This document shows positions 12,001-43,549 of a DNA stretch of 64,000 bases, in pieces. The notes under the pieces were generated by a model that worked only from the letters and a program-made list of their open reading frames with translations, was not told where the DNA came from and did not search any database. The stretch lies in the NCBI GenBank assembly GCA_040285745.1, contig JAUFOR010000001.1, positions 372,001 to 436,000 of the forward strand. Reading direction: 5' to 3'. The first letter of the stretch is position 1, and every line of letters begins with the position of its first letter. The DNA is from Barthelona sp. PCE (Eukaryota). Both the position numbers and the translations under genes were made by a program.

Positions 12001-15000
12001 AGAGTACCACCACCAATATTAAGCACGTTAGCAGCAAGAGTAGCAGTGTAATAGAGTGCTACATGTCCAGTAGGTTCAAGGTTAATGAGCAAGCTTGCAT
12101 CAGCGTCAAAATCACCATGGATATGTGTGATGGATGTGTTAGTGAACTCATAGTCTATTGTTCCAGTGGAACTGAATGACTCTTCAAATGAAGCAACGCT
12201 GTAATCGAACGTAATAATAGGGTTGGTGGAGATGGCACCATGACTGGAGAAATCTCCTTCAACAGTGATAGTATCACGAAGTACAGTCGTAGAACTATCA
12301 GTAAAGTAAGTCGTGTTCTTGAGCAGAGCTTCAGTGAGCATAATGATGTCGGACTCGACGTAGAGGTGACCCTCGTTGATGAATTTGGCACGATTTGGTG
12401 TCTCCTTCTTATCAACAATTGAAACGGGTGCAGTAACGTGCATTTCACCATAGTTAACAATGGTGGCCTTATTATCAAGAACCAGATCCGAAGACAGGTC
12501 TGTAGACTTATAAAGCTCGATGCGGCGTTCTGTAACTGTATGAGCAGTTGTATCGATTGAGATGTCGCCGTAGAACTTTGACACAGAACCAAAACCGCCC
12601 AAGACAGTTGCCTGCCATGTTGTTACATCATTAGAGATGGTTGTACCACCACCAATCATTGTACCATCAAGCAATTCCATAGTACTATCTACTTCCACAT
12701 CACCATCGATACTTAAATCACCATTTGTTAATCTGAGAAGATCAAAGATATGGAGGTTAAGTCCGAAACCAACACTAACTTCTCCGTCGAATATCTCAAG
12801 TACACAGATGTCAATATTCTCGAAAGCTCCAGATGTAGTCATTGAGATGAGACCACCATGTAACATGAGTGCGCCGTCACAGTTATCAAAGACTGCAGGA
12901 GCTCTAATGTACATCTGACCAATATCAGTAACGTTGATGTTAGAAATGTTAGTGAAACCAGAGAACGTGACGGTTGAATTGTCAATGGTAACGTTACCGT
13001 CACCAATAAGCTTACAAGTAGAACCAATGAAGAAGGTCGAAGCTGCAAAGACAAAGTGACCATCGCTGGAAACATTGATGAGACCTGCAAGGGAACCACC
13101 GCTCTGTAAGGACATTGTACCATCGTTAACAATGACGTCACCGTTGAGCACGAAACTCGACTTCAGGTTAACATCAGCAGAGATGTTCCATAGACCATTA
13201 ACTGTCAGATCACCATCCAAATCGATAGTAGCAGGAGTTAATGAACGAAGTTCACCAGTGGACTCAATCGTGAGTGCACCATCCTGTGTTGCCTTCATGT
13301 CACCGGAAGACCATGATAGGAGACCGGCAACCTTTAGGGTTCTCTGAGTCCATGTCTTGGTTGTTGATCCAACAATATAGAAGTTATTCGAAACGTATGT
13401 GATACCATAACCGCGCATAACACCATCGTACCAGTAAAGATCACCGTCAGAGACAGTAATAAGACCTGTTCCCTCGATGACACCACCTGAGAAATTGAAG
13501 GTTCCTTGTGCCACCTCCAAGTCAGCATCAAGTGTGACAGTACCGTTGTTGATGAGGACATCACCGTTAACAACGAGAGGGGAATCTGAATAGAGTACAC
13601 CGTTATTGAGTGTAACATTTGAAACTTCTGCGGGGGATCCAATACCACCACCGACAAACGAGAATGTAGCACCTGAAATGAGAATCGGGAGCGGAACTGT
13701 GAAGGAAACTTCAGGGTAGAAGCGAACTTCACCATTCGAAGCCTCAATCTGTGAAGACGGGTCAAGATCGAATGTACAGTAAGCGTCAACGTTAGTACCG
13801 TTAATGAGGAAGGATCCAGTACCAGACATCGTCAGAGTGTCTGAAAGGAACGCAGTACCACCCTGAAGGATGAAACTAGACGTATCGAGGAACTCAATGT
13901 TACCACGATATGAACCATCAACCATCATATAAAGATCAGTATCACCTTGAATACGAAGAGTACCATTGTTATCAAGGAAAATGGATGCCCAGACAGGGGT
14001 TCCAGTTTCGAACAGGAAAGTACCCGACTCAAGGTTCTTGAGAAGAGGCGTTGAAAGAGCAGGAGCCGTAAGGTTAAAGTTAGGCTTCTTGAACTCAAAT
14101 GTGCCGTGGTTCTCAATAACAGGAGAATCTTCAAGTAATAAATCACCATCTGTGAAGGTAACCGTTCCCATATTAACAATCTTCGATTTGAACACCTTTT
14201 GATCAGCACCATAGATCGACATATCACCCTGGTTATAGATGGTTGTTGATCCTTGAATGTTACCGCTGATCCAGTGAGAATCACCAGGTAATATAAAGTC
14301 ACCAGTACCAGTGAGGACACCTTCTTCCAACTGGAAGTAGTTGCGGAGCTCAATGGTAGCCATATCGGCTGTGAAAAGTGACTGAATAGATGTGATGTTT
14401 GTTGAATCCATAACAACGAGATCACCAACAACATACAATGAACCGTTCTTCATGAGAAGGGAATTCAAAGTGTAACAGTTCTTGGAAGGATCCAACTGCT
14501 TGGGAACGTACACGGAACCACCTTCGATAATGAGGTCGACACCGTAACGCAAAGCATCATTACATGAAGATGGCAGAAGGGTAACCATTGCAGTACCGGA
14601 TACAATAACGGTTGCCTCTAAAGGACCAAGTTCCTGAGAACCTGAATCAATAATAATGGCTGAACCTTGTGTAACGACTGTACCACCTGTGATCATAAGC
14701 TTCTCCTTACCAAACTCAATCTTACCGTCCTCTAATGCACGAATTGTACCACTAGAGTAACCACCACCAATAAAAGCAATGGAACCGTTCAGAATATCAA
14801 TCTGGAAAGTGTTCTCGATGGACCACTCCATACGAACTCTGTTAGTCAGTGAATTATGAATGTTGGGTGCTGCAGGTCTAATAGAAGAGCACAAACCAGC
14901 GGCTCGAAGAGGATCATTGATATCGAACAATGTGTCAAAGTTCCAATAGCCAATGAGACCACTATGCTCATAGTTATCAGCGCTGAAGAGCTGAATACGC

Positions 15001-18000
15001 TCGAAGTTTTCAATACCACGTTCGAAAACTCCCATATGAGTAACGGAAGCAAGAAGGTTGGGTGAACCGAACCACATCTCGTTTTCATTATAAACGGGCT
15101 TTGTATCGAATGGAATATCAATAATTTGAACGTTATCAACAAAGAGATAGAAAGTAGTGTCCTTAAGCTCAACAACAATGCTATGAGAAACGTTATGCTC
15201 AATATAGTGGCACTCTGTGGGCTCGAGGAGACCAGCAGAACATCCACCGTCGTGAACTGTAACGTTTCCAGCATCATTAATGACTGAAAGAACAAATCTC
15301 GTGCCTAAAGCATCCTCAGTTGCATTGTAGAAATCAATCACGGTAAGGTTCCAACTGTCTGGAACACCGAAAAGAGGAATCTCAGTCTCAACCATAGAAA
15401 CTGTACGGTTCATATTGACCGCAAATGAGAAACCAGCAGGGAACCTGAGACTACGAGAGCCTTCCATGACAAGCTTAGCTCCATCAATTTCAAGACCATA
15501 GTCGCTGATAGAATACTCTCCAACGTCACCGATAGCTTGCATCCAATCAAACTGAGATGAACCACAGTAGGTGGCGTCAAACTGCTCGTGATAGTTTGTC
15601 TTTGTGAGGTTACCCATGTTACGGATGGACGCCTTGTTGTCATCTCTCAGCCAGTTAACATTACCAAGATAGGCAATAGCTTCGGCAGGGATGATCATAC
15701 TAGCACCGGACATACCGTGAAGGTTACCCTGGTACCAGGCGAGCTCATCGTAGAAAGAAATAGTACGTTCCTCAACCATTTTGTGGTAACTGCTTGTGAT
15801 GTTAGACGTGCCGTAACATGCTGTCGTACCAAGACCAGCAATAGTACCACCGATAAAGTCGAAACCATTAACAATCTTAAGGCTACCGAAACCACGCTGA
15901 ACAGTGTTGTCCTCTTGAAGAAGACGCTCAGTAATGATAAATGAATCAGAAACAGTGAGGATACCCTCTTCATAAAGGTGGTAACCCTTTGTCACTGTAA
16001 CAGAAGCACCGATAATTAATTCACCAGCCTTATGATCAACCTCTGGCAATACGAACGTGTCAGTATTGTTAGTCTCCTTAATAGAAGTTTCACCACCCTC
16101 AATAAAGAGAATGGAATCAGGGTTAGTCATAGCAAAACCAGTTGAGAACTGAATTACACCATCGACAACACGAATACCATTACCGTTATCGAACTCGAAT
16201 GCCGAGTCAGAAACAAGCTGGGTAAGACCATCAACTATGAATTCACCGCTGTTAACAGTAATGTTAGTGTTATCATACCACGTGTGGTAACCATCGATCA
16301 GATGCAGTACACCATCAGCCTCAACGTCAACAGTTGTATTCCAAACTGAGTCGCACGTGAGGTTGAGTTTACCTTGAGTAACTAAAATAGAACCGGAAGG
16401 ACGACTGTAGAAAGTGGGATAAAGCACCATCTGTGCGTCCATCTTATCAAGTTCAATCTTACCATAGTTCTGAATTTCAGAAGGCATACCTGTACCCATT
16501 GTGATGACAACATCTTCATTATCGTTAACAACATTCAACTCCGATCCCTCATCAATTATAATACGTGCATAATCCTCAAGAATGATCTCACCGGTGGTAA
16601 ACTCGGTGACATTACGTACTCTGAGGGTGGCACGGTTGAGAGTAATATTATCGACAACGTTAAGTTTACCCTCAAGATCAATGTTGAATGAACCAATACC
16701 TCCAAGTTCACCATCTGAGAAGGTAAACTTGTTGGAGACATCAACCTCACGTGAACATGCGAGAGAACCACCTGTAATCGATACTTCAATAAAGCTGTAG
16801 GCGTTACATTGAAGATCAATTATACCACCGTGAACATCAATCAACTTAATATCGAAATTCTTGGGTGGTGTCTTTGCGGTAACGTAGCCGTTAGCAAAAC
16901 CAAGAGTACCTTCACCACGGATATCCGTTCCGTCTTGCCACTCAAAGTAATCAGTGTCAAAATCAAGTACACATGAGTCAGAAACGTTCATGATACCACG
17001 GTTAAAACCTGAGGAACTAACAATAAGATTACCCTCTGTAACGTTAATAAGTCCAAAGTTACGCAGCTCACCAGAGAAACGAGCATCCTCGCTATTAACC
17101 TTCTCAATCTCACCATAGTTGACAGTATTGAGACCATAAATATCCTCAGTACTGTTCTGAGCATTGAGAGTGAACAATGTGTTATCGCTTAAAATGATAC
17201 TACCAGACGAAGCACTGTTATCCATAGATGAAATTCCACGCATAAATTCAACATTACCATTGACTTGGACAGTCATATCACCAAGACGAACATCGGAACC
17301 GTTGAAGATAAGGTCAGCAGAGCTGTCAATCACAATCTTACCATAACCAAACAGTTCAACTGTGTCAACCGAAGAGTTACCGAAAGTCTTCATTGTGTTA
17401 GGCACAGTAATTGTGGATGATGAATCCAAAGTACCTGCCTGGACACGAAGCTCCTTCATGACCTCCATTGATACACACTTATGACAAAGAACACCACCTG
17501 AAACCCAGAGTGAAGGCATGACGGTAAGATCATCGATAATAAGCTCACCACCAGAAATGGAAACAAAACCATCACCCTCGATTGTGCCACGATAGAAGAC
17601 TTCACCAGCAGATACGTCAATCGATGAGAAATCAAGATCGGCATCAGTTGTGTTGAGGAGACCCTCGCAAATAGCATACCAGCCACCTAATTCAATGACA
17701 GATAGTTGGGAATCGAACTGCGAGTTCTCAAGGAACGTGACAACGGAACCAGGTCCGAATGTCAGACTGGAACGCTGTAGAGAGTTACCCTTAATCAAAC
17801 CAGAAATATAAGAGTCGACACCTCTGATCTCCAGGTTACCGTCAATTAGGTGAAGCTCACCACTAAACATCTGCTTGAGAGCACCGTCTACTGAAAAGAC
17901 AACAGTACCATTACCATGCTTCTCTACAACACCACTGTTCAATAAGATGATGTTTGTGTCATAAATGTCTGTGGTATTCAAAATGAGAGTTCCGTGATTG

Positions 18001-21000
18001 TCAAACACCCAACCCGCTCCAGCCGATGGCATGGAGAAACCTGTCTCGGGAGTCATATAGAAAGTAGACTCTGAGTAAATTGATGCCGGAGTTGTGAACG
18101 TCCAGTCACCTTGTGACCACCTAGAAATCATAGAAGGATCAGTCAGTGAAATGAGACCGCTAGTAACAGTCTTGGCAAGTGCACCTCTGACAAGGAAGTT
18201 TGTAGATACGCTGATCAACGACTCCTTGTGAATATTAATTGCACCTGACTGGAGATAGAAGTTATCAATTGAAATGTCAGCCATACCAATGAGTGAACCA
18301 CCACCAATAAATTCGTCAAACTCCAAAGTCTTGAAGTGGGCGCCGTAGTAAATTTCAACGGATGAAGCCTGAATAATTAAGTGACTAAAGTACATATCGT
18401 CGTGCCCAATGTTGTTGATAAACATTGAACCACTGACTGCGTAAATCTGGAGATCATCACTGGAATCAGAATCAATCACGCAATGTTGGAACTCCACACT
18501 GCCTCCATCGAACTCAATAATACCAGATCCGTTCAATACACCGCCTCTCTTAATAAATGTAACTCCATCAAACACAGTGATAGAACCATTAAGAGATGTA
18601 ATGTAAGCACCTTCATCAGTGAAAGCACCGCCAATCCATGTACTGTTACCAGCAGTCATATTAAAGAACGAACCACTCTCAAGGAGTACTGTCTTAAATG
18701 TGATTGATGTGTGGTTAGTGTTATCAATGACAAGAGTACCACCTGCCTCAACAATAATGTCAATCTTTGTGTTGATGATTCGTGCCTCTTCTGAGTTAAC
18801 AATTTCCATAACAGCACCATCACGAATACGTATGACAGAGTAGGCCGTGCTTGAGAACGTATGATCACCTGAATTAAAAGTGAGCGTGCCGTACACATCC
18901 ATATTACCGTTGAACGTACAACCGGGCTCGTTAAGAGTAGCTGTTGCACCCTCGGTAATAATAAAGTTAGTGTATATAATGGTACCACCGTAAATATCAA
19001 GGAAATCAAGCACTTCAATCTGTCCTTTCCAAATTGAACTTGTTGTGATCGTACCACCATATGTTGTTGTTTGGTTGATGTGAAGGATCTCATGAAGCGT
19101 CAATTGGCCGCCTGTAATGTTAACACTACGAATATCAATGTCCCAGAAGTTCATGTTCAGCACACCTGTATCAATGACGACGTCACCCATTGACTTGAGA
19201 TTTGTCGTCTCTGATTCGCACCAGATATCTAGGATACCTGTTGTACAGTTGTTCATAACCATCGAACTGATCATATCAATCTGTGATGCTGATACAACTG
19301 AAGTACCATTAAAATCATAGTTGTTTTTGAAGTATGACCTGAATGCTGAATTAGTATTATGATGAAGAGTACCGTTACCATAAATATTGAATCCAAGACC
19401 AAATGCATATGAACGGATTTCAAGCGTGGCAAACTCATTGATCAAGAATGTACCGTCGATCAGAGTATATGCAGAACTACGAGCATTCGAACCTAAGCGC
19501 AAATGTCCTTCATCAACCTCAACCACACCATCCTCTAAAGTTTTAATATTGAATTGAATGACGAATGGAAGTGAACCATTCTTGACCAACATACCATAGA
19601 TATATAGAGCTGGTGTTGAAGCCGATCCATCATAACTGATAACTGAAGTCAAGTTAACATCAGTGGGATATATATTCAACAAACCAACGTCAGTCACTGC
19701 AAGATAAGAAGAAGTTGCAAAATAGAACTCACCATGGATCATATCCATAATACCGTAAATCTTGACATCACAATTGCTGCTCAGTGTAATCCTACCCTCT
19801 TCCGTGGAGTTATAGTCGATCAACATTTGTCCATAGACATTAAGATCGAAACCACAGTTAAGGTTGGAACCACCACGCACATCAAAGACACCGTCATCAG
19901 TAATGTTAAGAATACCGTTGCCGGACAACTGACCGTACATTAACAGATCGTTGAATGATGCTGTGGAGTATTGAATAACGAGGTTAGCACTGTTTGAAAG
20001 AATCTTGGTGGGAGCAATAAGTGTTGTGATAGCATCTACAACAAGACTCGATGAGTTATATGTAATGATGAACTGTTGACGAGCAAGATCAGACCAGTCA
20101 ACTCCGAAAGCTGCAACGATTGATCCACTGTCGTAGGCGATAACATCGGTACGCAAGTCAACATGGCCACTAAGTTTCAGAGTACCAGTGTTGTTTACGA
20201 ACACTAAACCATCACCTGTTAGGTTACCACCGTTGTGATAAAACGTCTTTTCTTGGACGTTGATTTCAGCACCGGCTGCGACTGTAATGTCACCAAAGTT
20301 AACCCAATCCATAATAAGCTCAATGGTTCCTTGGGCAACAGTGAGATTATTGTAGTTGGTTACGACACCCTCAATGATTGTAGAACCATCCAGGAGTAGC
20401 AAACCAAAGTTACGAATTGTACCATAGTCAGCGAGCGTTGTAATGATACGGTAATCGTGTCTTTCAGGTATTGTCCATGAAGCAGTATCTGCAATTTCAA
20501 TGACACCCAGCAATTGAAGGTCAATATTGCCCTCTGTCCACAAAACTTCATTCTTAACGTGAATGATAGACGCCTCGATTGTCTTGGTAAACTCAGTGTC
20601 TAACACAAGATCATTTTGGACAATAATTGAACCGGTTGACTGAATGAGACCCTCCTTAAAGGCAAAGTTATTCAAAACATCAATTGTTCCAGTAATCAGA
20701 ATTGTACCATTACTCAGTTCGAGGTCAGTATCAACAGTACAGTCAGCTTCTACGAAAAAGACGGCACTTTCGTGCGCAATGTTCATCATGGGAAGCGTAA
20801 GATCTGTTGAAACCTGGAGCATACCGTTACCAATCAAATGAACTTCGAAATCGGCATCATACTCCAGAATTCCTGCAATGAACAAGATAGATTGTGAATC
20901 GGCTGTGGAAGTCGTTGTCTTGAAGACAGACGTAGTCTCAAAGCGAAGGGTACTTGTGGTTGTATGTCTGAAGACATCACGCTGATGATTGAGCACAGCT

Positions 21001-24000
21001 CCTTCCATAAACAACATGTAACCAATGTTCTCGGCCTCACCTCGCATGAAGAGCGTGGCGTTACCGATTGTACCGTTGACAATAGTACTAGCTGTCATTG
21101 CGTTGATAAACTCCGTCTGAATAACAAAAGGCGACTCGATAATCAGACTGTTGTCGTTGTGAATAAGAATCTCCATCTCACAAATCTCGGATTCACAATC
21201 CTTGACTGTGAGGTTCTGATAATTTGTGAGCACTGGTCGATCCAGTACAGGAATTCCAGAATCCATTGCGAAAACTGAACCTTCAGTGAAGATCATTTCA
21301 GCTTCGTTGTCCAATGATGATTGTGTTTTGAAAAGAACAGAAGCGTTGATAACTTCAACAATACCCTCTAACACAAGTTTCTTTGTTTGAATAGATTTGG
21401 ATTCTTCACCAATAATACGAGTGAAAGCCTCGGATGTTAGACGACCAGCACCACGAATATCACCAGAAATCCATGTAAAGTTATTTCTAACATTGACATC
21501 AACTGAAGTATCAAGTGAACCAGCCGAAAGAATGAGCTCACCTACAGAACAGTAGAGAATACAAGCAAATGTACCACCCTCAACGTTAACAAGTGCTGTG
21601 GAGGTACCTGTAGGCCAGTAAGAAAATGAACCAGAATACAGGTCAATGGAAGGTCCGTTGATCTCACCAGCTAGCTCGAAAGCACCACCAGATATAATAA
21701 CAGAACCAGGTCCATCAAAAAGGGCACCCTCATACACAATGAATGATCCAACGGTGTAGTTATATGTTGAACAACTAGGTACGCTAATACCTGAGTAGAA
21801 TTCACCACCACCAAGGAAATCAATCTCGGAGCAACCAGCAAAAGTCATGGTTCCGTTGTTGGAAACAAAGAACTCAACGTCCAGTTTGATAGCTGCTGCA
21901 GAAGACATGTCACCTTGGTTGTTCAACGTACAGCTAGTGGATGAAATGAAGTTATACTTCTCATCCGCGGGTGCAGTTAAATCAATGTCCTTCATGTTGT
22001 AAATCAATCCACTGTCTTCACATGTGATGTTGGCAGATGCAATGGTAAGGGTACCCTTGTTCACAAACTGACGTTCGCTAATGGTTACCTCACCACTAAT
22101 ACTGTGAGCAAAGTCATCCAACACGGTTGAACCCGTGCCACGCATTTCACCGCCAGTCCACGTTAGCGCATCAATCTTAACGAGAGATGTACCTGTGATG
22201 ATACCACCATTGAGGTTCATCATAACAAAATGAACCTCCTTCGAGACGATCAGCTGGCCAGAGACCAACGTGATTGAGTTGAAACCTACAACGGGATTAG
22301 TGAGCGCGAAAATGAGATCACCATCACCCAAACTAACATCACCGCTGAACGGCATCGTTCCTGAAACCGTTGTTGAACCCTTGGCAAAATCAATTACACC
22401 AGAACCGTCAATGACACCGAACATGTCTCTTACGGCGGTGGTTTCACCAAGAACAAGAATACCATCAACAATATAATTAATATCATTAATAAAAGTACCG
22501 TCTAAACGGAGTTTACCATCATCAATGTTGATTTGACCAGATCCTGTGATCTCAGTTTCAATAATTGTCTCGTATGTGGCATCTATCTTCTGCATACCAC
22601 CGTTCACAATGATCTCTGCATCGAACCCTGAAATTAAAACATCCTCAGTTTGATCAAACACAAGCTTACCATCCGCACTTACAATGAGCACAGCAACTGA
22701 AGTTAGTGTCAGGTTACCCTTAATGAACTTCAGATCTGAGTGTACAATAAGAGTAGAATCAAGCACTGATGCGATCTCCACAGAGTCATGCTTGGCAACA
22801 AACCCGTTCTCCAATATGACAGAACCTTCGCCTGTGATCTCACCTGCAGCCCAATCGAAGCTGTTGATGGAAACCAAACCACCATTATCAAGACGTGAGT
22901 TATATCCTGACATGTCAAATGCTGAGGTTGTAAGAGAGGCATTACGCTCAAGAGTTAGAGAACCATTGATAATTGTAATAGAACCGATCGTATTAACAGC
23001 ATGAATGGCAACACCAAATGAGAATGTAGTCACTCCAGAAGTGTTCTGGATAACCATATCACCCTCGAATTCAAAAGTTCCGTCAAAACGTCCATAACCC
23101 ATCTGGTCAACAGTGAAGCCACCGTCACCAGAAAGAGTAGAGCCGGATACGAACATGAGCATCTGTGCATCATCTGTTGCGTTGAAAACAACAGTTGCAG
23201 ATGATCCAACGTCAACAGTACCGGTAAAACGCGAGTTGCGCTTATATTCGGCAATAGCTGAACCGCTCAGTGAGACGGATGAATCATCTTGTACCTGACA
23301 ATCAAACTGAACATCGCCTAAAATGTTTACGTTATCATACAAGTACACATAGTGACTGCTGGAACCGTCAGTGTGGAATGTGACAGGGTTACTTGAAGCA
23401 AACAGTACTGTCTCATGAAGATGTAAAGCAGCATCATTGTTGAGAGTTATTCCGCAATTATTAATAATGTATGAGACATCAGTAATGTGTACACTAACAG
23501 AATCCAGCGTGATATCACCATCTTCAATATCAACACCACCTAAAAGGTAAACCTCACCAACACCAGTAATAGAACCAGAGTTCAATGTAGTGGATGTGGT
23601 GATGTTAAAGAGATAGTCAGAATCAGCCTTGAGAGTACCACCATTGAGATGGATACTCTTGATGACACATGATGAAACACCGTTGCAATAAAGCGTGGAA
23701 TCAGCACCAAGTTCAAATGACATGTCTTCAGTATCAGTATCATTGATGTGCAAAGTAGCAGGAACATCGGGTGCAAACACAACAGTGTTCGTAAGGATGC
23801 CACCGGAAACAGTTACATCATCAAATACACCATAACCACCAGCCAATATGAAGGCACCAGGACCAGAAATGGAACTGTCATAGAAGTTTGTAAAGCGAGT
23901 TGCTTCTGAGTTGTTGTAACCAATCTTACCATCAACGGCAACATTGAAAGTACTTAATACAATATCAGCATAATCAAAGAGCAGACCACCCTTCGTTACT

Positions 24001-27000
24001 GTAGCCGTAACACCATTCATACGCACTCTCAAAGTCTTGAGATACATGTTGATGTCTGCGGCATCGTTGTTCACAACAAACGTAACAGTAGGATCCATTG
24101 TAAGCTCGGGGATATGAGAACTAGTCTCAATACCACAAGCTTCAGAACACTCTGCGCTGATAGACGTCTTCACATGGATGAAATCATTAGAAGATACTGA
24201 AGTGTCCATTCCGTGAGTATATGAATAAAAACCGCGAATAAACTTAAGGTTATCAACTATAAACTCAATTCTCTCAGTCTGTCCTGAACCGCTAAAGACC
24301 GGATCAACATCGATCTCAAGTGTCGTGGCAACAATTTTAACATAAGCAATACCAGCATGGTTGGTAATCTCCTTAAACTCACCGCCAGCCAGAATAAGAT
24401 GGTTAAAATTCATGCTTATCTGAGCAGTTGTAATGTATCCCTTCATGAGGCGAACAGTACCAGGAATAAGTGGTGAGTCACCAGCAGAACCAAGACCGAG
24501 AACATGAACAATTGTGTTGTTAATCATGAGTTCTGTGCCTGATGTTACAAATGAGTCCATACCCCACATACGTAATGTGGATACACGAGACTCGAAAACA
24601 ACAGAACCTGTCAGTGATGCTGAGGAGTAGATAAGAGCAAGAGAACCGTCAACAACAATTCTACCTGTTCCTGTAATAGCACCGTGGAATTGATGGTTGT
24701 TTGAAGTGCCTTCAACATAGAAAACAACGTTATCACCAAGATCGACAGTACCATGAACTTCGACCGCGTCTGTAACGAGCAAATTGCAATCATCATCGAT
24801 GGTTAAAGTTCCGTCAGTGGGAACGACAATGGAATTGATTGTGTTGTTTGTACCCGTCACACTAACAGTCTTAACTGCAATGGACTCACGTGCACTTAAA
24901 GATGATATGAGAACGTCACTCTGAATTACTAAAGTACCGTTACCAGTGATCATCTGCTCACGATCAGAGTTGATGTACACCTGGTCAATTGTGAGCGTAG
25001 CGCCCAATGAAATGTGGATGTAAGCAAATGTGAATGTGAAGTCATCCAGACCACCATCGATTACACCTGCAGCACCTGTCTCAAGAACAATTCGGCCAGG
25101 AGCACCAGATATGATACCTCCTTCCCATGTGAATGAGTTACTCACATGTATTGTTGAACGAGTCAGCGTAAATGCTGAACGAACAGTTAGATCTTCAACA
25201 TAAATATTGACATCCTTCAACTCTACGCTTCCTGCACCATCAATGATAAGACCCTTCATTGAATGGTTATCATCGATATGACACACTGCAGCAGGATCTG
25301 TCATTGTGATGGTGACAACATCACCATCAGTTGGGAATCCGTTGGGTGAGAAAGTAGTTGAATCATCGAAGAAATCTACAGTAACAGCCGAAGAGAAAGT
25401 TCGAGGAACGTTTGCTTCTGTTGATGACGCACAAGTACCGCCATAGAAACCGGGCTCACAAAGACAAGCTCCGTTGAGACAGCGCGCATTGTTAGTACAT
25501 GAACCGCCGCATGTGTCAGCAACGGAACAATCAGGACCTGTGAACCCACCGTCACACGTACAAACACCTGAAGAACAAGCTCCATTACCCGAACAATCAA
25601 GAGGGCATTCGTATATGTTAAAGAGAACATCAGAGCCTGACATAATTGGAGTGATAGTGATACCACCAACAACAGCAGGTGTGATCTCAATATTATAGTG
25701 GGGTGAGATAGAGGAAGACGAATCGAGGAACTTGTACTGTCCCTCAACAAGTGCTCCAGCGGTATTGGTGATCTTTAGCGTACCCAAAAATTGCATAGCG
25801 CCAATAGACGCAATATAAAAATCATTGATGGATCTTGTTTGATCAAATACACCCTCTAACACAGCTGATGAATCACCAATGAGAGCGCCTCCCATACGTG
25901 TTAACATCTTTGTTAACTTAACATAACCGCCGTAGATATGCGTCTTTGTGGTACTGATACCATAATCAAGTGTGGCTTGACCATAGATGTACATATTGGT
26001 GGCAGTCAAGTAAGTAGCAGCAGAAGACTGATCAACACTGCCATAAACAATTAATTCAGTTATTGTTGGTGATCCGGCAGAGTGTGTGAGTAAACCATTC
26101 ACTATGAACCTACGTGCACTAATACTACCTGTGATATCCACAGTTGTTCCGCTGTGGAACACCCAACTGTAGTTTGGATCACTACCTGAGTCCCACTGAG
26201 AACCAGCATTCAAAGAGTGTGGTCCAGGAGCAGAAATCTCAAGATTACAAGGTGCCTGATAACAGCGAACATTACTGTTCATTGTGAACGTACCACCGTT
26301 AATAAAGAAATCAGTGATGTAAAGGTAGAAGTAATCGGCACTAATCGTCAGATCATTGTTAAAGATCCAAGCACCAGGTCCGTTAAAGTACATAATGTTC
26401 GAAGGAGCAAGTACAAAGTCTAATGTCAAAGTTCCGTTAAAGACATAATGTCTACCGTATGGCATAATATTTGTGGATGCACTGCCTAACGATGAGTGAC
26501 CGAATGAGCGAATACCATAATAATATGAACTGTGATAACCACTATAATAGCTAATACTGGACATAAAGTTAACATCCGAATCAAACAAGATTATGTGTGA
26601 GTGGAATCCTGTTGGTGTACGGAAACGCAAATCATGATTAAATGTACAACCAGCACAATCCTTAAACGCAATAGCGTGATCATAAACTTCCCAAGGTGTC
26701 GTAGCCGTGAATGAAAAGCCTGATGTTAACCAAGTATAACCCTGATTGTTCATAATTATGTTTCTAGTACCAAAATCAAATGAACCACTTGATGGTCTAG
26801 GACGCATTGTGTTGGATGAAGAAAAGTAAATGTACTTAGAAGTAGTTGCATCTAACGTCATATTAATGAGACCTTCATTCAATACTTGAAGATAGAAGTA
26901 ATAGTTAGTTGTGGTTGATCCCCCAACATTATCAACCATTTGACCGCCAACTTCAATGTGAAGATACCCATCATTAAACAAATGTTTAGGAAGTGTTCCA

Positions 27001-30000
27001 GTTCTAAAGTAGTGACTGGAAGAGCTGGAGAACTCAAGACTCAGTGTAACACCAGTCTTGACACGAACAAATGAGTTTCCTCTGATGTAAGTTTCACCAT
27101 GCACGTATGTCGAATCACTATTGAGCACAAGACCCTGGTTATCGATGTAGCGTGTTGTTGTTGTAAACACAACACCACCATCAGCAGTAACAAGACCATC
27201 ACCCAGCAAGTAACCGCCAGCAAATGTGAATAAGCCATCCATAACGAGATTTGTATGTTCATCGTGGATGTGAAGGTTACCCTTCATGATTAAACCAGGG
27301 AAATGTACCTCACGAGCACCTGGGAGTGTTGTAATGTGTAAGTTTCTGCCACTCTCTAATTGCCAAATGAAGCCATTAAACCTAGAACCCGGGTTCAAGT
27401 GCAAATGTCCACCACTTGAAATCTGTGGATAACCACGAACAAGTGAGTTAGTCAAGTAAGCGTTCTTTGTGTTTGCAACATCTATAATACAATTGAAAAT
27501 AACATCAAGGAACCAAGTATCCTCCATGACATAGATCTTCAGACCAGAGGCATCAAAGTACACATCATAAACTGTTGTTCTGTATGAAGCAGGCGTGTAG
27601 AAGTATATTGAACCACCATCACGAATCATGACCTTCGTTCTATTGATCATCAGCTCGTGATAGAAGTGGAGAGGACCATTCTGAATAAACAGACCACCAC
27701 CACCAACCGAACGTGAATGATCAATGAAGGGAATGCGGATGACAGAACCTGACGCCGACCATTTGATATATGTACCGTAGTTGACAAACTCAGGAACAAA
27801 ATCTGTGCTCTGGGTGTTCAGCGTGTATGATGTTCTATCCATAAACAAGTTATAGTTGTTAAATGTGATAGAACGGTCGTGATCGCAGTCAAACATGATG
27901 TTACCCTCCTTCCACTCAAACTCACCGTAGTTTTCAAAACTAAAGTATCCCTTGAAGTAGTGAACATTGGACGACTCGATCGAGAAATCAAGCTCAGGAA
28001 GTGTAATCTTTCCTCCCTCAGATCCATGAAGCGTACCTGAAATGAAACGGGAGTGACGACCAAGAACCAGATGGTTTGAGAAATGGACAGTGCATGAAGT
28101 AAGAATCAACTTCATTCTGATTTCCACATCATAGAAGTCGACGGAACCTGAAGAACAGTCGAGGATGCTGAAGAAAGGCACTGTATCATCAATCTTTGTG
28201 CGTTCGATGAACTCTAGTTGCTCCCTGTCATCAGTCTGATAGTTTGGTGGGAAGTGAATGCTTGCACCACTTAAAACTGAAAGTTTCGAATCCCCAGTGA
28301 GATTATATGAACCATACATGTAGTACGTCGCACTGTGGAAATCAATCAAACCAGTACCGTTCAATGACGATTCGGGTTTGAACGTAAAGTGTTGGTATCC
28401 GACAGGAGCTCTGTGACTTGATTGTAAATAAAGGCGAGAGTAATCACCAAGATAAATCATGCCAGAAGATACACCTGTATGGTAGAGATAAAGATATGAC
28501 TCTGCTCCACCTGCTGAACCGTATACATATACACTACCACGATTATCGAAGGGAACCTCGAAAGAAGCGTGATAGTGCACATAAACTTTAGTAATGTTAC
28601 CGGTAGGCATGTTGATGATCTTTGAGCACAAAGGATCTGAACCACCACCATTATAAATATTAATGTAATACGTCAAGTACATTGTACCATAATTATGAAT
28701 CTCAGTACAATACAAATATGTCTGAGGAGAACCGTATGTGGTCATTTCACCATCAATAACAAGATTGAAGTGACCAAAATGCTGGTAATCATCTCTAAAA
28801 TCAATTTGAGCGTCGGGAGCAATCACAAGCTCGGGAGCAATACGAAGATTACGGTTTTTATCATAATTAATATATGTGTTTGCCATCTTAAGCTGTACTA
28901 AGAAGGTTGCTCTGTTATTGAAACGCAGTTCACCATAACTACTAATATACATGCGTCCAATATAAAAATCATTGTTATACACGTCCAAATTACCACCAAC
29001 AATATCAATGTAACCAAACTCCGGGTTGACAATTGACATTTGCCTGTAGTTACTGATACTCTGGTCAAGGATAGCTTCAGCATCAGAACCATACAAGTGA
29101 AGGTTAGCTGATGAGTGGACATGGACTCGAACCTGAGTCTCATTGTAGAATGTTATCTCTGCAGAGACATGAACAGTTGTTTGACAGTAAATATAACCAC
29201 TGATGTGGAATTCTGATCCAGGGTGGAACGTGGTCGGTTGATACATGTCGAATCTAGAAACCTTGCTCACGTTAACCAAACCATGGAAATGGTGAGGCTC
29301 AGTTTGCAAGTACGTGTGACCAGTATTGATATCATGCCATTCACCACCTTCATGGACAGTCATAGAACCATAAAACTGAGTGTAACCAGTTGTGTCACGG
29401 ATGAATTTACCGTAAATCTGGACACCTCCTGAGTTGGAAGTGTACATATTATGGTTAGCAGGTGACCTATCTGTTACTGAACCTGTTGTATTAACAACAA
29501 ATTTGGCAAAGTTTTGAACATAAATATGTCCACCATTCCAGTCACAATCTCCATTAATCATAACTTCAATTCCCTCCTGAATGTAGTGTGTACCACGCAT
29601 AGTACAACTGTCTGCAACGTCAAGAATAACGAGACCGTCACCCTTAATGTAACCACCACTGATATCAAACTCTTTGTGAACACGAAGAACAGCACCTTTT
29701 TCAACAACAAGGTTACCCGAACTGATGATGAGGTCGTTAGTCTCAATTGACTCTGTGATAACCAGGTTACCACTTGAGCCAGTTACACCAAGAGATCCGA
29801 ATACAGCAGCAAGTTTACGCAAACGTAATTCACCTGCTGAAACAATAAGAGCAAAATCTGAATTTGAAAATGAAACGTCAGCGGATGAATCCATAACCAG
29901 ATTACCTCCAGCAACACGAAGATCACCGTCAATACTAACCTCGTTACCAAACATCAAATGACCGCTATTCAGCTCAAACACACTGTTAGCATCGGAATCA

Positions 30001-33000
30001 ACCTTAATATGCACGTGCTCCAAAACGTGATCAGTACGAAGACGTTTGGAACTGTCATGGTAGTAGTGCAACTCACCATCTTGGAGGATGGTAATGTTGC
30101 CCTTCAAATGTGTTAAACCGTACATACGAATGTCATCACGAATAATTGTTAGGTTGTTATAATTATAGAAGTTAGCATAAACATAATGTTCATAGTTGGA
30201 ACTGTCAAATATAATTGTACCGTAATTATGGATTGATGACAAGAACAGTCCTGATGCAGAACTTGAATAGATGTGAGCAGAACTATCTGCAATCTTCCAA
30301 TCGTTGTAAGAGTTCTCAGTAAAGTTCAAAATGGAATTATCATGAAGATAAATATGACCTGTAGTCCATGTTGACCCGTTATTGATCTCAACTATCTTTC
30401 CATAGAAACGCTTGTTATAATTTTGAGATAATTTCAGTTCACTGTTAAGGCGCAGAACTCCTGAACCATAAATACGACCATATCTAAAGTCAAGACTGCC
30501 TTCTTCAGTAACGGTAACGAGTCCATCGTGATAAAGACGACCATCATCACGAATAATTACAGTGTTGTTAATAAACATAACGTGATCATGGAAATCTATG
30601 GCGCTGTAGTACATATCAAGAGAATTTAGCTCGAGAATAGTACATGAAACGCCTGCTAAACGCAACGGATCTGTAATGATTGGATCATGTGCTGTGTGGA
30701 AGTGTAATGTACCGCGCCCATATGAATAACCACTGTTAGTATAAGCTGCAGTTAAAGATGTAGTCGTTGCATTGTATCGTCCATAAATATGTGTGTTACA
30801 ATGTCCATAATTGATAAACTGACCCAACACAGTAACATTTCCATACACATATGCGTTACATGGATAAGCAGTACTGGTACTTAATGGATGTATGTAAAGT
30901 ATACTTCCTTCATCTACAAAAACATTGCCATAAAACTCAGAGACAAGTCTAAAGTAAACAAGGGTTGAACCATTAATAATAAGTTCAGCACCAGGCATGT
31001 GACGGAAATCTATACCAAGATGATTGTTAGAGTTACCACTATTAGCAACAATAAGACCGTAATTGTACCATGTTGGTTTGGCGGCAGTTGGTGTAGGGTA
31101 GAAATTCCAACTGGCAGTTGTGTAGAAGTACGTTACTGAATCTGCACCTGTCCAGATGGAAGCGCTGCTGTCCATGTATAATCGAGTCGAAACCTGCTCA
31201 AATGTACCATTGACAATGAACGCATGATCGTAGATGTATAGATTTCCACCATCACGTGTATCCAGCAATGCATCGTTTTCAATGTATGTGACAGCACGTC
31301 CACGGTAGTTACCATTACTTAAACGCAGATGCTTGGGCTTGAAGTCATAGTCAACATACAGAGTACCACCGTTAACCTTAAAGAAATCGGCAGTAACGGG
31401 GTTCATAAGATAAAAGTTTCCGCTACGCGTCTGCCAATATGGATAATGCTCTCCATTCAGGTAGTGTTCACCTCCTGAATCTATAGATGGATTTGACTCC
31501 CATGTGGTTGTGTTATAGTAGTGGTAATAACTTGTTGCATCATAAGCGTCCCAGTAATATGTACCGTATCGATGCATATGTCCGTGGAAGTGATGATGCC
31601 CATCAAGTCTGAAATACAAATGGTAACTTGTAAGAGAACAGCATTGATAATCAGAACGCCACATAAAGTAGCCATAGTAATGGACCGTACCAGCGATGTA
31701 AAAATTAGTCTGTGCACGAACATAGACCTTAAAGTTATTGAAATATGTACCTGACGAGTACAAATACAAATCTTTGCTGTCACAATAACAACGATCAGGA
31801 TGGTAGCCATAATGAACACGACAATCATATTGCTCAAAATAGAAATACGTGTTGTCGAAAATAGAATCATAAATGAAAAAGAACTTTGGTGAATGACGAT
31901 ATATACTAAATGTTGTGTGATTAGAGTGTATGTGTGCCATCAGATGGATACCAGGACTGTTTGCCCAATCTGTTGAACGATGCAAATAGAAATGAGAATG
32001 ATCCAGAATCAGATAGTTATGACACGATGGATTAGTACGGTCATTATACATATCTGTGTGACCGATAATCCTGCCAAATGAATCCCAACCATGATCGTAA
32101 TAATCAACGTGACCAGGATCCATATTCCTAATCAAGAACTCTGAACCCGGACGCATAACCACAGAAGATCCACCATACCATCTGAAGTTCTTGTACTCAT
32201 AATAATACAATTGATATCGAACATGAAGTGCGATTCCTGATTCTAATATAGCCCACAAATCATCACGGTACTGATAGTTATAGTAACTACTAGTTTCGTG
32301 CGGACGACGAACATTCTGCAAATGAACATAGTTTGCTGAAACGGCACCAGGACCGTATACTCTAGCTGAATATAGATACATATTCTGCAAATAGAAACGA
32401 CAAAAAGCAGAAACATGTACCTGTGAAGCTTCGTACATGTGGAAGTTGTGGCTGTTAGGAATAGTAACATTTGACTGGATATGAAGCTTACCACCATTAC
32501 CTGAATAAGTGTAAATGAAAAAGATCATCTTCAAAGTTGCAGGTTTAGTCACAAACATTTGTCCATTTTGGTACAAGTTAATGTAATCACCTAACTCAAC
32601 ATCTGTTGTGGTCTCAGGTTCAATGTACATATTATGGTTAGTAATATGTGGACGATCATAACCACTGGTTGAAGTTATACCACGGAAATATGAATAACCA
32701 GAATCAAAGTACATGTTAACATCATGCCAATTACTGCTACCACGGGAACGAGTTTGGTATGTGGAACCAGCTTCAAAAATCATTGCACGCAAGTGAGAAT
32801 AATACTGGTATTGATACCACTTCGAACCACTCTCAAATGTATGTGGACCATCTTGCCAAACTGTGGAACCATACAATGTAACAACAGCACCATTCAAGTG
32901 ACGGGTTGGAACAACAAAATACATGTGATAGAAACCACTGGAATATTCGTGAGCTGTGGTAATGGATCCTTCGTTTAGCAACAGGCCCTTAGAACCAGTG

Positions 33001-36000
33001 TATGTAGCATGTCGAGTCTGTGTACTGTCTGGGTTACAATCATAATGACCACCAGGCATAATATGGAATACAACACTATCAGAAATATACGTATAATAGC
33101 GATACATGTAGTATCTTCCATAGAGTTGGAACTCACCAGGACCATAGAAATAAGTATGATGATATTGTTTAAACCAAGAAGTGACCTTGATGAAGGAGTT
33201 CTTCTCAAAGTGAAGACTTGAACCACTGTTGGCATACCACTGTGTGACAGTTAATGAAGCACCTTCATAAGCATAAACGCGACCACTAGCTGCCTCAGTA
33301 TAGAGATACGGTGTCTCAACATCGTAGTGATAGACATGCATCTGTGATGAATCATAGAGGTATACTCGGGGAAGACTGTTGACCTCTGTTGAATTCTCAA
33401 TTTGGAAAACAGCACTGTTGCGGAAATACAGGTTACCACCAGTGATTGTTGAACCTTCTAGAAGATTGACAGTAGAGGTAGAGTAGAAGTTGGCGGCCGC
33501 AGTCAGTGCATAGTCACCCGCTAATCTAAAGTTAACCGATCCTGTGACTGACAACGTACCAGCACCTTCCAAAGTTGAATTCTCACCAATATATACAAGA
33601 CCATTGCTACATGTGAATGTAGCTCCGGATGCGATTGAGATCAAATCTTCAGAAACAAAATGTTTCTCGGTTGTTAGTCCTCCACTGTTAAGGAAAATAT
33701 TTGAATTGTTGTATGTGAACACTGGAATCTGAAGATTGACAACTCCTGAATGACCACTGGTTGTAATGTTACCAAAGAGCATAACTCTCGAAATATCAGG
33801 CTTGGCATCATTGTCATACATATAAACAGTACCAGAAGCTATGCTTAGTGTAGCCACAGCCGTATCATTAATGAACAAGTGTGACTGATCAAAGTGCATG
33901 CTTCCCGAATCCCACCAAAGTGAATCAAAGACTGTAACAGTACAGTTATCCAGACGCCAATGCGAACCAGTCAATGTAACTTCATCCATGAGGAAGAAGG
34001 CTTGATAGAGATGAGCGTCTGAATTCATTGCGTAGCTACGGAATGTAACCGTTTCAAGACCCTTCCAGACACCATTGGTGTGAACCAAATCCTTAACAAC
34101 GGGATTCGAACACTTGGAATCGATAGTTCCGTCTACTAACTGCATGTAATCAACAGAACCCACATCAGAGCCCAAGTGAAGATTAACAACAGCTGTGGCT
34201 CCATTAACTATGAATGTACCATAACCATGAAGAATACCAAACATGTCAAAGATGTGATCATCAATGTGCAACTCAGAATTTAGATCCAAATATACGTTAG
34301 CTGACTGTGTAACAACAAACTTATTGTCACAAGATAGATGAACGTAAGTGAGATAATTAACCCTGAAACGAGCAAGTGCCTCAAGATAAATACGGTTCGA
34401 GTGAATGATGACCGGGCCCTGTCCTCCAATTACAAAGTCTGCGGCCCTGTGTATATGCACTCCCCATGACAGATCGAGTGCGTGTATAGAATCCATAACG
34501 AGCTCGTTCTGAATGTTGATGATTGATGGGTTATCAATCTCATTACAGACAATCTCAATATCTTCAACCTGTAAAAGACGAGCTGCACCCATAAAGTTCA
34601 TGATTGCAGCGTTGATACCGTTGAGGTTACCGCGCTTCCATGTGAAAGCAGCGGTAGAATTAAGAGTATATCTATCTATTGTCATGGGAACGGTTGCCTC
34701 AAACGTTACGTTATCGGAAACCAAAGAACCTGTATCACGAAGATAACCACCTGACCAATAAAAGTAAGAATCTGCATTCAGTACACCCTTTCCAATAACC
34801 TCACCATCATTTGACAAATACAAAGATGACATTAGAATATCAAGACAGTTGTACAAGAACTTGCCACCCTTGACAAAATACTGAGTGTAATCTGGCGGAG
34901 TCTTACGCAAATCAAGGGAACCACCTGTAATATAGACGGGAACACCCAAGCTTGAAAACTGAACGGTATCCTTGAAAAGTACATATCCACCTGAAACAAA
35001 AAGTTTACCATTATTGTTAAAGTTCATTTCACTCACAAACGTGTTACCACCATATGAATGAACAGCGCCTGCACAATCAAGTGTACCAGTTCGCAAGTTT
35101 GCGATACCGTCTCCGACTGAAAGCGTACCGAACAGGAAGATATTGATTGGGCAATCAAAAATGACATCTCTGGTAAACATGAGCTCACCAACTGAAACGT
35201 CTAATTGACCAACAATTCTAATGATTATTCCAATGGTTCCCTTAATATCTTTACCGTTTGACTGGACGAGAATACGTCCAGAAGATTCAAAAGTAGATTG
35301 TAGACCGGATCCATGAAGCCAGAAGTAATCATCAGCCAGCTCAATTGCAAAACGCCCATCTGGGGCATTCTTGATGTAAGCAGCATCGTGGAAAGTCAGA
35401 TTACCTTCAACCCAGTGAATAATACCAGTGTTAACGAAAGACTTGGCCTTTAGATGCTTCTGTTGTGAAGAAAGAAGATACATATCTTGCTCACACTCGA
35501 GAGGACCACGGCCAGAAAGTGTACCACCGATCCAGTTGAACACACCCTGCAACAGGAATGTACCTTCGCCAGTCATCTCACAAGAATCAGACATATTGAA
35601 GACAGACTGAATCTGAGAAGTGTTATGGATAAAGTGAACACCACCAGAACAGAATGAAGGTTGTGCGACACGGAAGTCACTGAAGAACGCAGTTTCACCA
35701 CCTGAGAAATCGAAATAGGTATCAATAGTGATGGGAGCACGCGCAACAAGTCGACCACCCAAAACATGTAATGGCGGAAGACTTTGTGACTGGAAACCAT
35801 CATAGTTCAAAATTGATGATGATGAACCATCGACGTACAAGGCACTACAGAAGAATTGTGCACCGTCATAGACTGTAACATCGGAACCGTTGACGAAAAT
35901 CTTAGACTGTGTCTGATTCATGTTAAGCATAGAACCAGACAGGAAGTATGTGAGACCTCCGGTCATGTCAACGTCACCATCACCCTCGACAAACGAGTTT

Positions 36001-42803: not shown

Positions 42804-43549
42804 GGATTGTGTCCCTTGTAAACCCTTTGAAAAGAAGATAAAATGCAAAACGAGTATTTATGCTCGTATGAGTCACTAAAATAGTTTATTTCATGGCCAA
42901 ATGTTTGCATGAGTAATTTAAGGAAGATTGCATGGAAAAAAAAAGCAAGCGATGCTTATGAGAGGGCATTTCGCAAATTCACCGTTTGAGTAAGTTACAG
43001 TAATAATAATGGTACCAATTGGGCGCATGTCACAATTTTCGTCTGTTATACTGACACATCATGCTTCAAAAATCTTTAGATGAAAATATTCCCCTGCACA
43101 ACAGTTTAATATTCTTGTCCCTGTATTGAGCATAGTGATATGCTCGTGCAGTGGATGATTTCTTTTGTGTAGGATTACTGTATCCTGTCATTATCTGCAA
43201 ATTCTTAACAAATCTTCAATGAGACTGGTAAAACTTCATCTATGTGCGCGTTTTGGCTTCACTTCAAATATTCAACAACGATCACAACAATGGTAGCACA
43301 GCGCTTCAGATGTTAGTATTAGAAAAACAATCAATGAATGTGAGAAAATTCTAATTAAGAGTAATTACCATTAACTAGCATTTTCTTGGGGTTAGTATGT
43401 GGTGTAAAATTATACTTACGTGTGATTTACGCGATATTAATCTAAAAATGAGTGTATTTGGGCCTTTCACCTTTTCTCAACGTGTATTCCATTTCCATTT
43501 TTATAATTTCTACAATACCTGTCACACTTAGGTAATCACGGATAAAACA

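What the first reader, a model, noticed from the sequence alone, without database searches (positions are those of the whole stretch)
25290..25800. Two complete beta-helix rods fused end to end through an EGF hinge
Seen: the mature N-terminus reads WYDSTSYFSPNLGRWPNTGDDVIH, and right after the two EGF repeats a similar motif recurs (FFDDSTTFSPNGFPTDGDVVTI). Just before the EGFs is a non-repetitive stretch, LGTLKIT...EGQYKFL...SGSDVLFNI. Knowledge: W..S.W...P...DDV.I-type motifs start G8-like and autotransporter-like beta-helices, and such helices end in capping strands. Inference: rod 1 (~5,700 aa) and rod 2 (~7,500 aa) are independently capped units, consistent with fusion of two giant adhesin genes and a jointed fibril.
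Basis: partly seen in the sequence, partly recalled or inferred. Interest (0 to 1): 0.7.

Follow-up and report, generated by a model that had tools for sequence, protein, structure and literature searches.

The report
Giant two-rod protist surface protein
A single-celled eukaryote encodes a 15,000-residue membrane protein whose outer part is two long beta-helix rods of a bacterial-type module joined by two EGF domains; the second rod starts afresh with its own cap, but whether two genes fused and whether the joint bends are unproven.

Summary
An intron-free 15,089-codon ORF encodes a type I membrane protein: signal peptide, about 5,700 aa of degenerate ~270-aa beta-helix repeats, two tenascin-type EGFs, about 7,500 aa more repeats, a TM helix and a long cytoplasmic tail.

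The second N-cap holds up. A profile from 137 independent caps ranks the post-EGF motif and the true N-terminus first and second in the protein. The junction ranks 1 of 132 windows and is kept in both paralogs where it could be read.

The C-cap of rod 1 is only positional (profile scores are at background level). However, an unrelated homolog has a canonical C-cap-EGF-EGF-N-cap junction.

The capped module is widespread, and I found no Pfam or NCBIfam model for it. It is often chained: 15 of 155 homologs carry two or more N-caps.

Two-gene fusion is unresolved. No stand-alone half was found in this genome and the rods are not collinear duplicates, but sister-lineage halves lie on separate contigs. 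Rod 2 carries a LamG-like insert and lacks the family C-cap. Flexibility and adhesion are inferred. New variant of a known kind.

The parts
3..42803 (-). Giant intron-free ORF from the likely start M16; continues past the window to the stop at G000:C1:369579 (15,089 codons counted from the TTG at 42848)
42705..42803 (-). Signal peptide (aa 16-48, hydrophobic core ending ASA)
   Evidence: read by eye from the sequence; no predictor run
42531..42704 (-). N-cap 1 (motif aa 62-85 at 42594-42665)
   Evidence: 10.9 bits, rank 2 in the protein with the independent N-cap HMM; probability 27, E 6.6e-4
25929..42422 (-). Rod 1: degenerate ~270-aa beta-helix repeat units (18 profile hits); Tyr 6.4% against 2.8% in rod 2
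   Evidence: beta-helix in the model for aa 5501-5665
31449..33251 (-). Aromatic-rich stretch of rod 1 (aa 3200-3800; 38-56 Y+H+W per 200 aa), candidate ligand-binding surface
   Evidence: function inferred
25608..25832 (-). Non-repetitive pre-EGF stretch (aa 5673-5747), probable degenerate C-cap of rod 1
   Evidence: same position as the canonical C-cap of P0017; own score at background; model pLDDT under 50
25527..25607 (-). EGF 1 (six Cys, tenascin/teneurin type)
   Evidence: Pfam PF23106 and PF07974 above cut-off
25431..25511 (-). EGF 2 (six Cys)
25224..25385 (-). N-cap 2 (motif aa 5826-5847 at 25308-25373)
   Evidence: 13.0 bits, rank 1; probability 91, E 1e-6; rank 1 of 132 windows; clearer in paralogs C4 and C2
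2817..25223 (-). Rod 2: same repeat family (29 profile hits, one unit split by the insert); ends without the family C-cap
   Evidence: beta-helix matches start at about aa 5810-5820
14859..15581 (-). LamG/concanavalin-A-like domain inserted inside one repeat unit of rod 2
   Evidence: ESM Atlas score 0.97 to PF13385 clusters; repeat unit split at aa 9087/9334; no Pfam hit; also present in P0225
2589..2816 (-). Cys-rich EGF-like plus PSI-like segment ending rod 2
   Evidence: sequence; weak EGF hit, E 0.039; the PSI label is a recalled motif with no Pfam hit
1014..2588 (-). Juxtamembrane extracellular region of unknown fold, conserved in three paralogs at 27%
948..1007 (-). Transmembrane helix followed by a basic stop-transfer run
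   Evidence: read from the sequence
3..947 (-). First part of a ~1,120-aa cytoplasmic tail (rest lies outside the window)
   Evidence: aligned with C4 at 17%

Best explanation
This is a type I cell-surface protein whose ectodomain is two separately started right-handed beta-helix modules in series, joined by a disulfide-bonded EGF pair. The module (N-cap, n x ~250-270-aa repeat, usually a C-cap) is a building block shared with many bacterial secreted proteins, where copies are often chained head to tail through short linkers. Here the linker is a eukaryotic EGF pair. Most likely working: the protein enters the ER by its signal peptide and each module folds as its own capped solenoid, so no exposed edge runs from one into the other. 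The TM helix anchors a filament of roughly 0.3 micrometre. Rod 2 is the stalk and carries a side lectin-like LamG domain. The aromatic-rich rod 1 is the distal binding arm for glycans on prey or substrate. The EGF pair is a thin spacer that lets the arms change angle, and the long tail couples to the cell interior. Shown: ORF, EGFs, second N-cap, repeat family, conservation in paralogs. Inferred: C-cap of rod 1, length, flexibility, adhesion, tail function. Origin of the tandem is left open between fusion of two genes and module addition within one gene.
For: N-cap profile ranks. Junction kept in paralogs C4 and C2 at about 25-30% identity, with clearer caps. In 155 homologs, 120 have an N-cap, 107 a C-cap, 15 have two or more N-caps, and 33 C-cap-to-N-cap junctions occur in 15 proteins, 31 with 4-27 aa linkers. 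P0017, held out of training, has C-cap 51 bits, two EGFs and N-cap 49 bits and aligns to this junction at E 1e-19. P0029 (labelled sponge Oscarella) and P0030 have two N-capped rods (P0030's own N-terminal cap was not detected) joined by a Cys-rich hinge. Models give beta-helix on both sides; solved beta-helices align to one side or the other (model residues 1-207 or about 310-600), and matches spanning both have rmsd 16-23 A. About 19 residues per coil in the model with the textbook 4.8 A rise gives about 270-330 nm for 19-23 residues per coil.
Against: Cap 1 and cap 2 resemble each other only weakly (probability 15.8), and single-sequence scores are only 2-4 bits above the next hit. The C-cap is not detectable in C1, C4 or C2. 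Junction pLDDT is 27-50, so the models do not fix the geometry. No family model, ligand or localisation is known. Counts of caps in the homologs use profiles trained on most of those same proteins.
Confidence: 0.72

Rival explanations
1. One reading: two formerly separate giant genes, a secreted rod 1 and a membrane-anchored rod 2, fused through an EGF pair.
For: Three Skoliomonas-type rod-1 homologs (P0014, P0015, P0227; 44-47% identical) have signal peptides and all stop within a few residues of one aligned position, with no EGF pair or TM. In two species the rod-1-like and rod-2-like records carry distant locus tags on contigs of different length. The rods are not collinear duplicates, and they differ in composition.
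Against: No stand-alone half in this genome: the two single-rod giants (C8, C6b) are not collinear with either half. The Skoliomonas ends map tentatively to about aa 4,350-4,450, some 1,300 aa short of the junction. Repeat similarity does not split at the junction more than elsewhere (0.65 against up to 1.03). The same junction in distant P0017 suggests it may be old.
Confidence: 0.4
2. The tandem arose inside one gene by duplication or recombination of a capped module, as appears routine in the bacterial relatives, followed by independent repeat expansion; no second gene was involved.
For: Chained modules occur in 15 of 155 homologs, up to six N-caps. Repeat subtypes are shared across the junction (units at aa 2437, 4119, 7394 and 8708 score 10-39 bits; 1862 with 9523, 33 bits).
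Against: No collinear diagonal between the rods (best offset mean residual 1.8 bits, neighbours negative). The split Skoliomonas records remain to be explained.
Confidence: 0.4
3. There is one continuous beta-solenoid, the EGF pair is an insertion looped out like the LamG domain, and the second motif is a chance look-alike.
For: Rod 2 does tolerate an inserted domain mid-repeat. The C-cap is not detectable and scores in the window protein are modest.
Against: The LamG insert splits one repeat unit that resumes in register, whereas the EGFs are followed by the top N-cap hit in 3 of 3 paralogs examined. P0017 shows canonical caps on both sides.
Confidence: 0.08
4. The junction is an assembly chimera or other artefact.
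For: The C2 paralog is frameshifted and the C6/C7 copy is cut at contig ends, so these genes are hard to assemble. No reads were laid on the junction.
Against: Two intact paralogs of 15,089 and 15,488 codons with no detectable DNA similarity to each other share the junction, as does C2.
Confidence: 0.02

Closest known systems
Fibrocystin / PKHD1L1
   Same: Large single-pass protein with two tandem regions, each a G8 domain continuous with a parallel beta-helix (passages of bioRxiv 10.64898/2026.10.19.758525). The post-EGF cap of homolog P0017 touches Pfam G8 below cut-off.
   Different: No IPT chain, PA14 or SEA domain was detected. The rods are thousands of residues of a different ~270-aa repeat, joined by EGFs. 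The window's own caps give no G8 hit.
Bacterial giant secreted beta-helix proteins (two-partner-secretion/FHA-type, PEP-CTERM and Phycisphaerae proteins; P0003, P0009, P0060, P0076, P0107)
   Same: Same repeat unit (11,320 clusters at E <= 0.001), same N-cap, and the same habit of chaining capped modules.
   Different: Eukaryotic signal peptide, TM anchor and cytoplasmic tail. EGF pair instead of a 4-27 aa linker. Modules of 5,700-7,500 aa rather than a few hundred to 3,000. No TPS domain.
Type Va autotransporter passengers (Vag8, Ag43, IcsA)
   Same: Right-handed beta-helix fold; best structural match Vag8, Z 16.8, rmsd 3.7 A over 269 residues. The family C-cap recalls the autochaperone/junction region (recalled, not tested).
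   Different: No beta-barrel translocator. Sequence identity about 14%. The match may reflect only the common fold.
Amnionless
   Same: Its N-terminal motif gives weak hits to caps of paralogs C4 and C8 (E 0.044 and 0.0057) and to P0031. A type I membrane protein with beta-helix parts (recalled).
   Different: All hits are far below the cut-off of 30.4 bits and cover only the cap. This protein is over 30 times longer.
Tenascin / teneurin EGF arrays
   Same: The two hinge domains are of this EGF type.
   Different: Only two copies, all cysteines pairable, placed between two beta-helices.

Membership tests
G8 domain (PF10162) | Pfam G8 match at or above cut-off at each cap | tested here: not met
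   No G8 hit at E <= 10 for 8 of 8 cap fragments from the window and paralogs. Homolog P0017 reaches 19.9 bits against a cut-off of 22.9, so resemblance only.
Fibrocystin/PKHD1 | Chain of IPT/TIG domains plus PA14 and SEA | tested here: not met
   Pfam scan of all 14,282 in-window residues in 7 pieces found none
Fibrocystin/PKHD1 | Two capped parallel beta-helix regions in a single-pass ectodomain | tested here: met
   an analogy of layout, not shown homology
Type Va autotransporter | C-terminal beta-barrel translocator | tested here: not met
   A TM helix and cytoplasmic tail instead; no Pfam hit
Type Va autotransporter | Autochaperone-like cap at the end of the beta-helix (rod 1) | tested here: inconclusive
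   In register but at background score; low-confidence models; IcsA fragment only rank 18, Z 8.6
Two-partner-secretion (FHA-type) adhesins | N-terminal TPS domain | tested here: not met
   Absent from the window protein; present in homologs P0060 and P0088
Unnamed capped beta-helix module (this report) | ~250-270-aa repeat unit | tested here: met
   47 profile hits along the protein (profile built from the protein itself); bacterial P0004 finds the gene at E 1.6e-15
Unnamed capped beta-helix module (this report) | N-cap at the start of each module | tested here: met
   Top two hits in C1 and C4; top hit of the junction ORF in C2
Unnamed capped beta-helix module (this report) | Family C-cap at the end of each module | tested here: inconclusive
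   Rod 1: positional only. Rod 2: no hit at its end. Clear in C8, C6b and P0017 (24, 31 and 51 bits).
Tenascin/teneurin-type EGF | Pfam match above cut-off, six cysteines | tested here: met
   PF23106 38.3 bits against 24.3; PF07974 25.4 against 22.1
LamG / ConA-like (insert in rod 2) | Family match | tested here: inconclusive
   ESM Atlas 0.97 to PF13385 clusters; hmmscan gave none
Adhesin (function) | Surface display and binding to prey, substrate or other cells | not testable with these tools
   inferred from anatomy only

The most novel reading that the evidence does not exclude
An unnamed, widespread capped beta-helix module that bacteria chain through short linkers has been adopted by several eukaryotic lineages (barthelonid/Skoliomonas metamonads, the unnamed source of P0017, a sponge). 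They join the modules with their own disulfide domains (EGF pair, PSI-like pair) to build articulated surface filaments about 0.3 micrometre long. In the metamonads the distal arm is a separate secreted protein in one lineage and covalently fused in its sister, giving a traceable case of giant-gene fusion or fission.
Probability: 0.3. Interest if true: 0.78.

Novelty: new variant of a known kind. Interest (0 to 1): 0.56.

Why it matters
A 10-Mb genome spends about four 45-kb genes on this two-rod protein and two more of 29-35 kb on single-rod relatives, so the filament is likely central to how the cell meets prey or surfaces. It defines a repeat and cap family with over 11,000 clusters for which no Pfam or NCBIfam model was found in the proteins scanned. 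It shows how very long beta-helices can be built from separately capped units. It gives a testable prediction: a two-segment filament about 0.3 micrometre long, with a joint about 55-60% of the way out from the membrane. The layout itself has precedent (fibrocystin, chained bacterial modules), which caps the surprise.

Tried and rejected
Whole-protein self-BLAST returned nothing; chunked BLAST was used instead. A homolog search among 5,500-17,500-aa proteins for the junction found none of 452 candidates. A second junction search returned 45 hits, 44 tenascins and one uncharacterised EGF-containing protein, and missed the known positive P0017, so it is uninformative. Foldseek gave no match at E <= 0.001 for model 1. 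The ESM Atlas gave only leads of 0.83 or less for the junction. Four tests for a C-cap in the window protein or its paralogs stayed at background: HMM, profile-profile, P0017 as query and a glocal PSSM (rank 19 of 245 peaks in C1, 179 of 252 in C4). Alignments with whole homologs were scattered and were dropped. The second model, with 4 sequences, stayed at mean pLDDT 51; no autochaperone domain stood out in its fold search. Locus scans with P0017, P0031 and P0030 found no relative. No RNA holder was listed for the junction, which is no evidence either way; no reads were laid. Whole-gene tandem duplication was rejected (no diagonal). C8 and C6b were rejected as stand-alone halves (not collinear, different C-termini). 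No repeat-unit tree was built: units are about 20% identical. Three look-ups of earlier findings returned nothing.

Full report
What is there. The finding lies inside one minus-strand ORF of 14,282 codons in the window that ends 807 codons beyond it, 15,089 in all. The genome G000 is 10.2 Mb in 8 contigs. Neighbouring genes are intron-free and eukaryotic by eye, and the closest named homologs are from barthelonid and Skoliomonas-type metamonads. By eye the protein has a signal peptide (aa 16-48), a TM helix (aa 13948-13967) and a ~1,120-aa tail. Pfam finds only the two EGFs above cut-off. Chunked self-comparison shows a degenerate 270-290-aa repeat; a profile built from the protein maps 47 hits, 18 before the EGFs and 29 after.

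Observation. All quoted motifs are present at the stated coordinates. The EGFs span aa 5748-5806, each with six cysteines.

Paralogs. The genome holds an intact 15,488-codon paralog on C4, a frameshifted collinear one on C2, and a near copy of C2 cut at the ends of C6 and C7 (95.6% and 99.3% DNA identity). C4 and C2 keep the junction, and their second caps are clearer than the window's. The C6/C7 copy lacks that part of the assembly. C1 and C4 are about 25-41% identical per 500 residues with no DNA match, so the junction is old and not an assembly chimera. Two more giants, C8 (11,555 aa) and C6b (9,673 aa), are single rods with one N-cap and one C-cap, followed by a different C-terminal half with a Cys-rich part and multiple TM segments. 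They are not collinear with either half. Eight own-genome searches with parts of the protein and one with a bacterial homolog found no stand-alone half; these searches give lower bounds.

The module family. A profile of 24 repeat units hits 11,320 clusters at E <= 0.001. Among 155 homologs examined (P0002-P0156; P0001 left out as a close relative), 120 have an N-cap and 107 a C-cap. Fifteen have two or more N-caps, and 33 C-cap-to-N-cap junctions occur in 15 proteins, 31 with linkers of 4-27 aa. These counts use profiles trained on most of the same proteins. Named examples are Synechococcus P0076, Methyloversatilis P0107 and a gammaproteobacterial P0088. Pfam (9 homologs) and NCBIfam (6 homologs and 3 window pieces) gave no model above cut-off for the repeat or caps.

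Test of the second N-cap. I rebuilt the cap profiles without 20 proteins of low G+T+S+A content, which removes P0017, P0029, P0030 and the Skoliomonas-type rod homologs then in hand. In the window protein the two best N-cap hits are aa 5834-5874 (13.0 bits) and aa 73-107 (10.9); the next is 8.6 and reversed sequences reach at most 6.9. In C4 the top two are again the two caps (17.6, 13.9; next 10.9), and the C2 junction scores 15.0. With a C1+C4 profile cap 2 gives probability 91, E 1e-6 and its window ranks 1 of 132, with cap 1 third. Against this, the two caps compared directly give only probability 15.8. The G8 label is not met by any of 8 cap fragments; weak amnionless hits appear for two, and P0017's post-EGF cap touches G8 at 19.9 bits, below the cut-off of 22.9.

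Test of the C-cap. The support is positional. P0017, an unnamed 3,413-aa record, has a canonical C-cap (51 bits), two EGFs and an N-cap (49 bits) in the same order and aligns with aa 5724-5911 at E 1e-19, largely through the EGFs. I put a degenerate C-cap at about 65%. Rod 2 has no C-cap hit at its end and runs into an EGF-like and PSI-like segment. It is also interrupted by a LamG-like domain (score 0.97) that splits one repeat unit.

Structure. The model of aa 5501-6100 (2 sequences, mean pLDDT 60.8) has beta-helix on both sides and pLDDT below 50 for aa 5667-5840. Solved beta-helices align to one side only, most starting at aa ~5810-5820 (Vag8 Z 16.8, rmsd 3.7 A, 269 residues); matches spanning both sides have rmsd 16-23 A. 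A 4-sequence model was no better (pLDDT 51.4).

Fusion or not. A unit-by-unit matrix shows no collinear diagonal between the rods, so this is not a whole-gene duplicate. Within-rod similarity exceeds cross-rod similarity (p 0.004), but equally or more so for arbitrary split points, so the junction is not a special boundary. In favour of separate genes: three Skoliomonas-type rod-1 homologs of 4,545-4,857 aa, 44-47% identical, start with signal peptides and end at one aligned position. In two species the rod-1-like and rod-2-like records lie on contigs of different length. Against: their ends map only tentatively to aa ~4,350-4,450 of the window protein (probability 94 against 93 for a rod-2 site). 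Those assemblies are Nanopore with Illumina correction and AUGUSTUS gene models (passages of PMC11316075), and unseen adjacent fragments cannot be excluded. I rate two-gene fusion and within-gene module addition about equal. P0029 (labelled Oscarella pearsei) has two N-capped rods joined by a Cys-rich hinge of another type, and P0030 has the same hinge and internal cap, so hinged tandems are not confined to this lineage. A transcript-derived protein from Barthelona sp. PAP020 covers the C-terminal ~4,000 aa (P0054), showing that a relative is expressed; the junction itself has no expression evidence.

How it likely works. Inferred from anatomy: a membrane-anchored filament of about 270-330 nm (19 residues per coil in the model, up to 23 allowed; the 4.8 A rise is textbook knowledge). 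It has a stalk (rod 2 with a side lectin-like domain), a thin EGF spacer and a distal arm (rod 1) rich in Tyr, His and Trp at aa 3200-3800, suited to binding glycans of prey or substrate. Separate caps would let each solenoid fold and end on its own. A preprint proposes such a nucleating role for fibrocystin's G8 domains (passages). Flexibility is not shown; EGF pairs can be stiff (recalled).

Known and new. The layout parallels fibrocystin, and the module chaining parallels bacterial relatives, but defining features of G8, fibrocystin, autotransporter and TPS families were not met. Five answered paper searches, seen as listings and abstract starts, showed no description of these proteins. Term searches in the main text of three barthelonid/Skoliomonas papers found no mention of giant, adhesive or coat proteins (passages only), though PMC11603281 notes cells sticking to slides. 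I saw only passages of bioRxiv 10.1101/2023.11.21.568195. I did not open any supplements; annotation tables there could mention these genes, and subscription journals are not covered.

Verdict. A real, conserved two-module architecture with a proven second N-cap, a probable degenerate C-cap, and an open history. New variant of a known kind, interest 0.56.

Noticed in passing
G000:C8:841255-875919 (L053-L056) and G000:C6:640834-669852 (L061-L064): Two single-rod giants of 11,555 and 9,673 codons with canonical N- and C-caps, then a second repeat region, a Cys-rich segment and a multi-pass membrane domain; a second receptor-like family built on the same module.
   Followed up: partly
G000:C2:1887968-1933178; C6 end; C7 start: The C2 paralog is broken into about nine frames only in its middle, where its near-identical C6/C7 copy is missing; probably uncorrected long-read errors in a recent duplicate.
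   Followed up: partly
window 14859-15581 (-): LamG/ConA-like domain inserted within a repeat unit of rod 2, also present in the Skoliomonas-type homolog P0225.
   Followed up: yes
window 31449-33251 (-): Stretch of rod 1 with up to 28% Tyr+His+Trp where the repeat signal fades; candidate binding surface.
   Followed up: partly
window 3-947 (-) and L010: Cytoplasmic tail of about 1,120 aa, apparently helical and loosely repetitive, ending in a poly-Lys run; conserved at 17% in C4 and also in P0054; fold unknown.
   Followed up: no
P0014, P0015, P0227 (aa ~950-1400): Skoliomonas-type rod-1 homologs carry a Cys-rich insert of varying copy number that the window protein lacks, and all three end at the same aligned position.
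   Followed up: partly
P0029, P0030: A sponge-labelled 4,759-aa protein and a metagenomic relative have two rods joined by paired Cys-rich (PSI-like, recalled) domains, with no membrane anchor.
   Followed up: partly
P0207, P0212, P0220, P0060, P0107: Bacterial-type proteins with five to seven chained capped modules; the family has no Pfam or NCBIfam model in the scans run.
   Followed up: partly
window 43550-64000: Neighbours look by eye like a WD40 protein, a Bax-inhibitor-type membrane protein, DNA ligase, a TPR protein, PACRG, threonyl-tRNA synthetase and a phosphodiesterase; two ORFs (45861-46841, 46873-48993) have no obvious identity. Labels are recalled, not tested.
   Followed up: no
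L011-L017: Other large EGF-containing surface proteins in the genome, including two subtilisin-like EGF proteins and an RCC1-like/IPT-like EGF protein of 3,671 codons (labels by eye).
   Followed up: no
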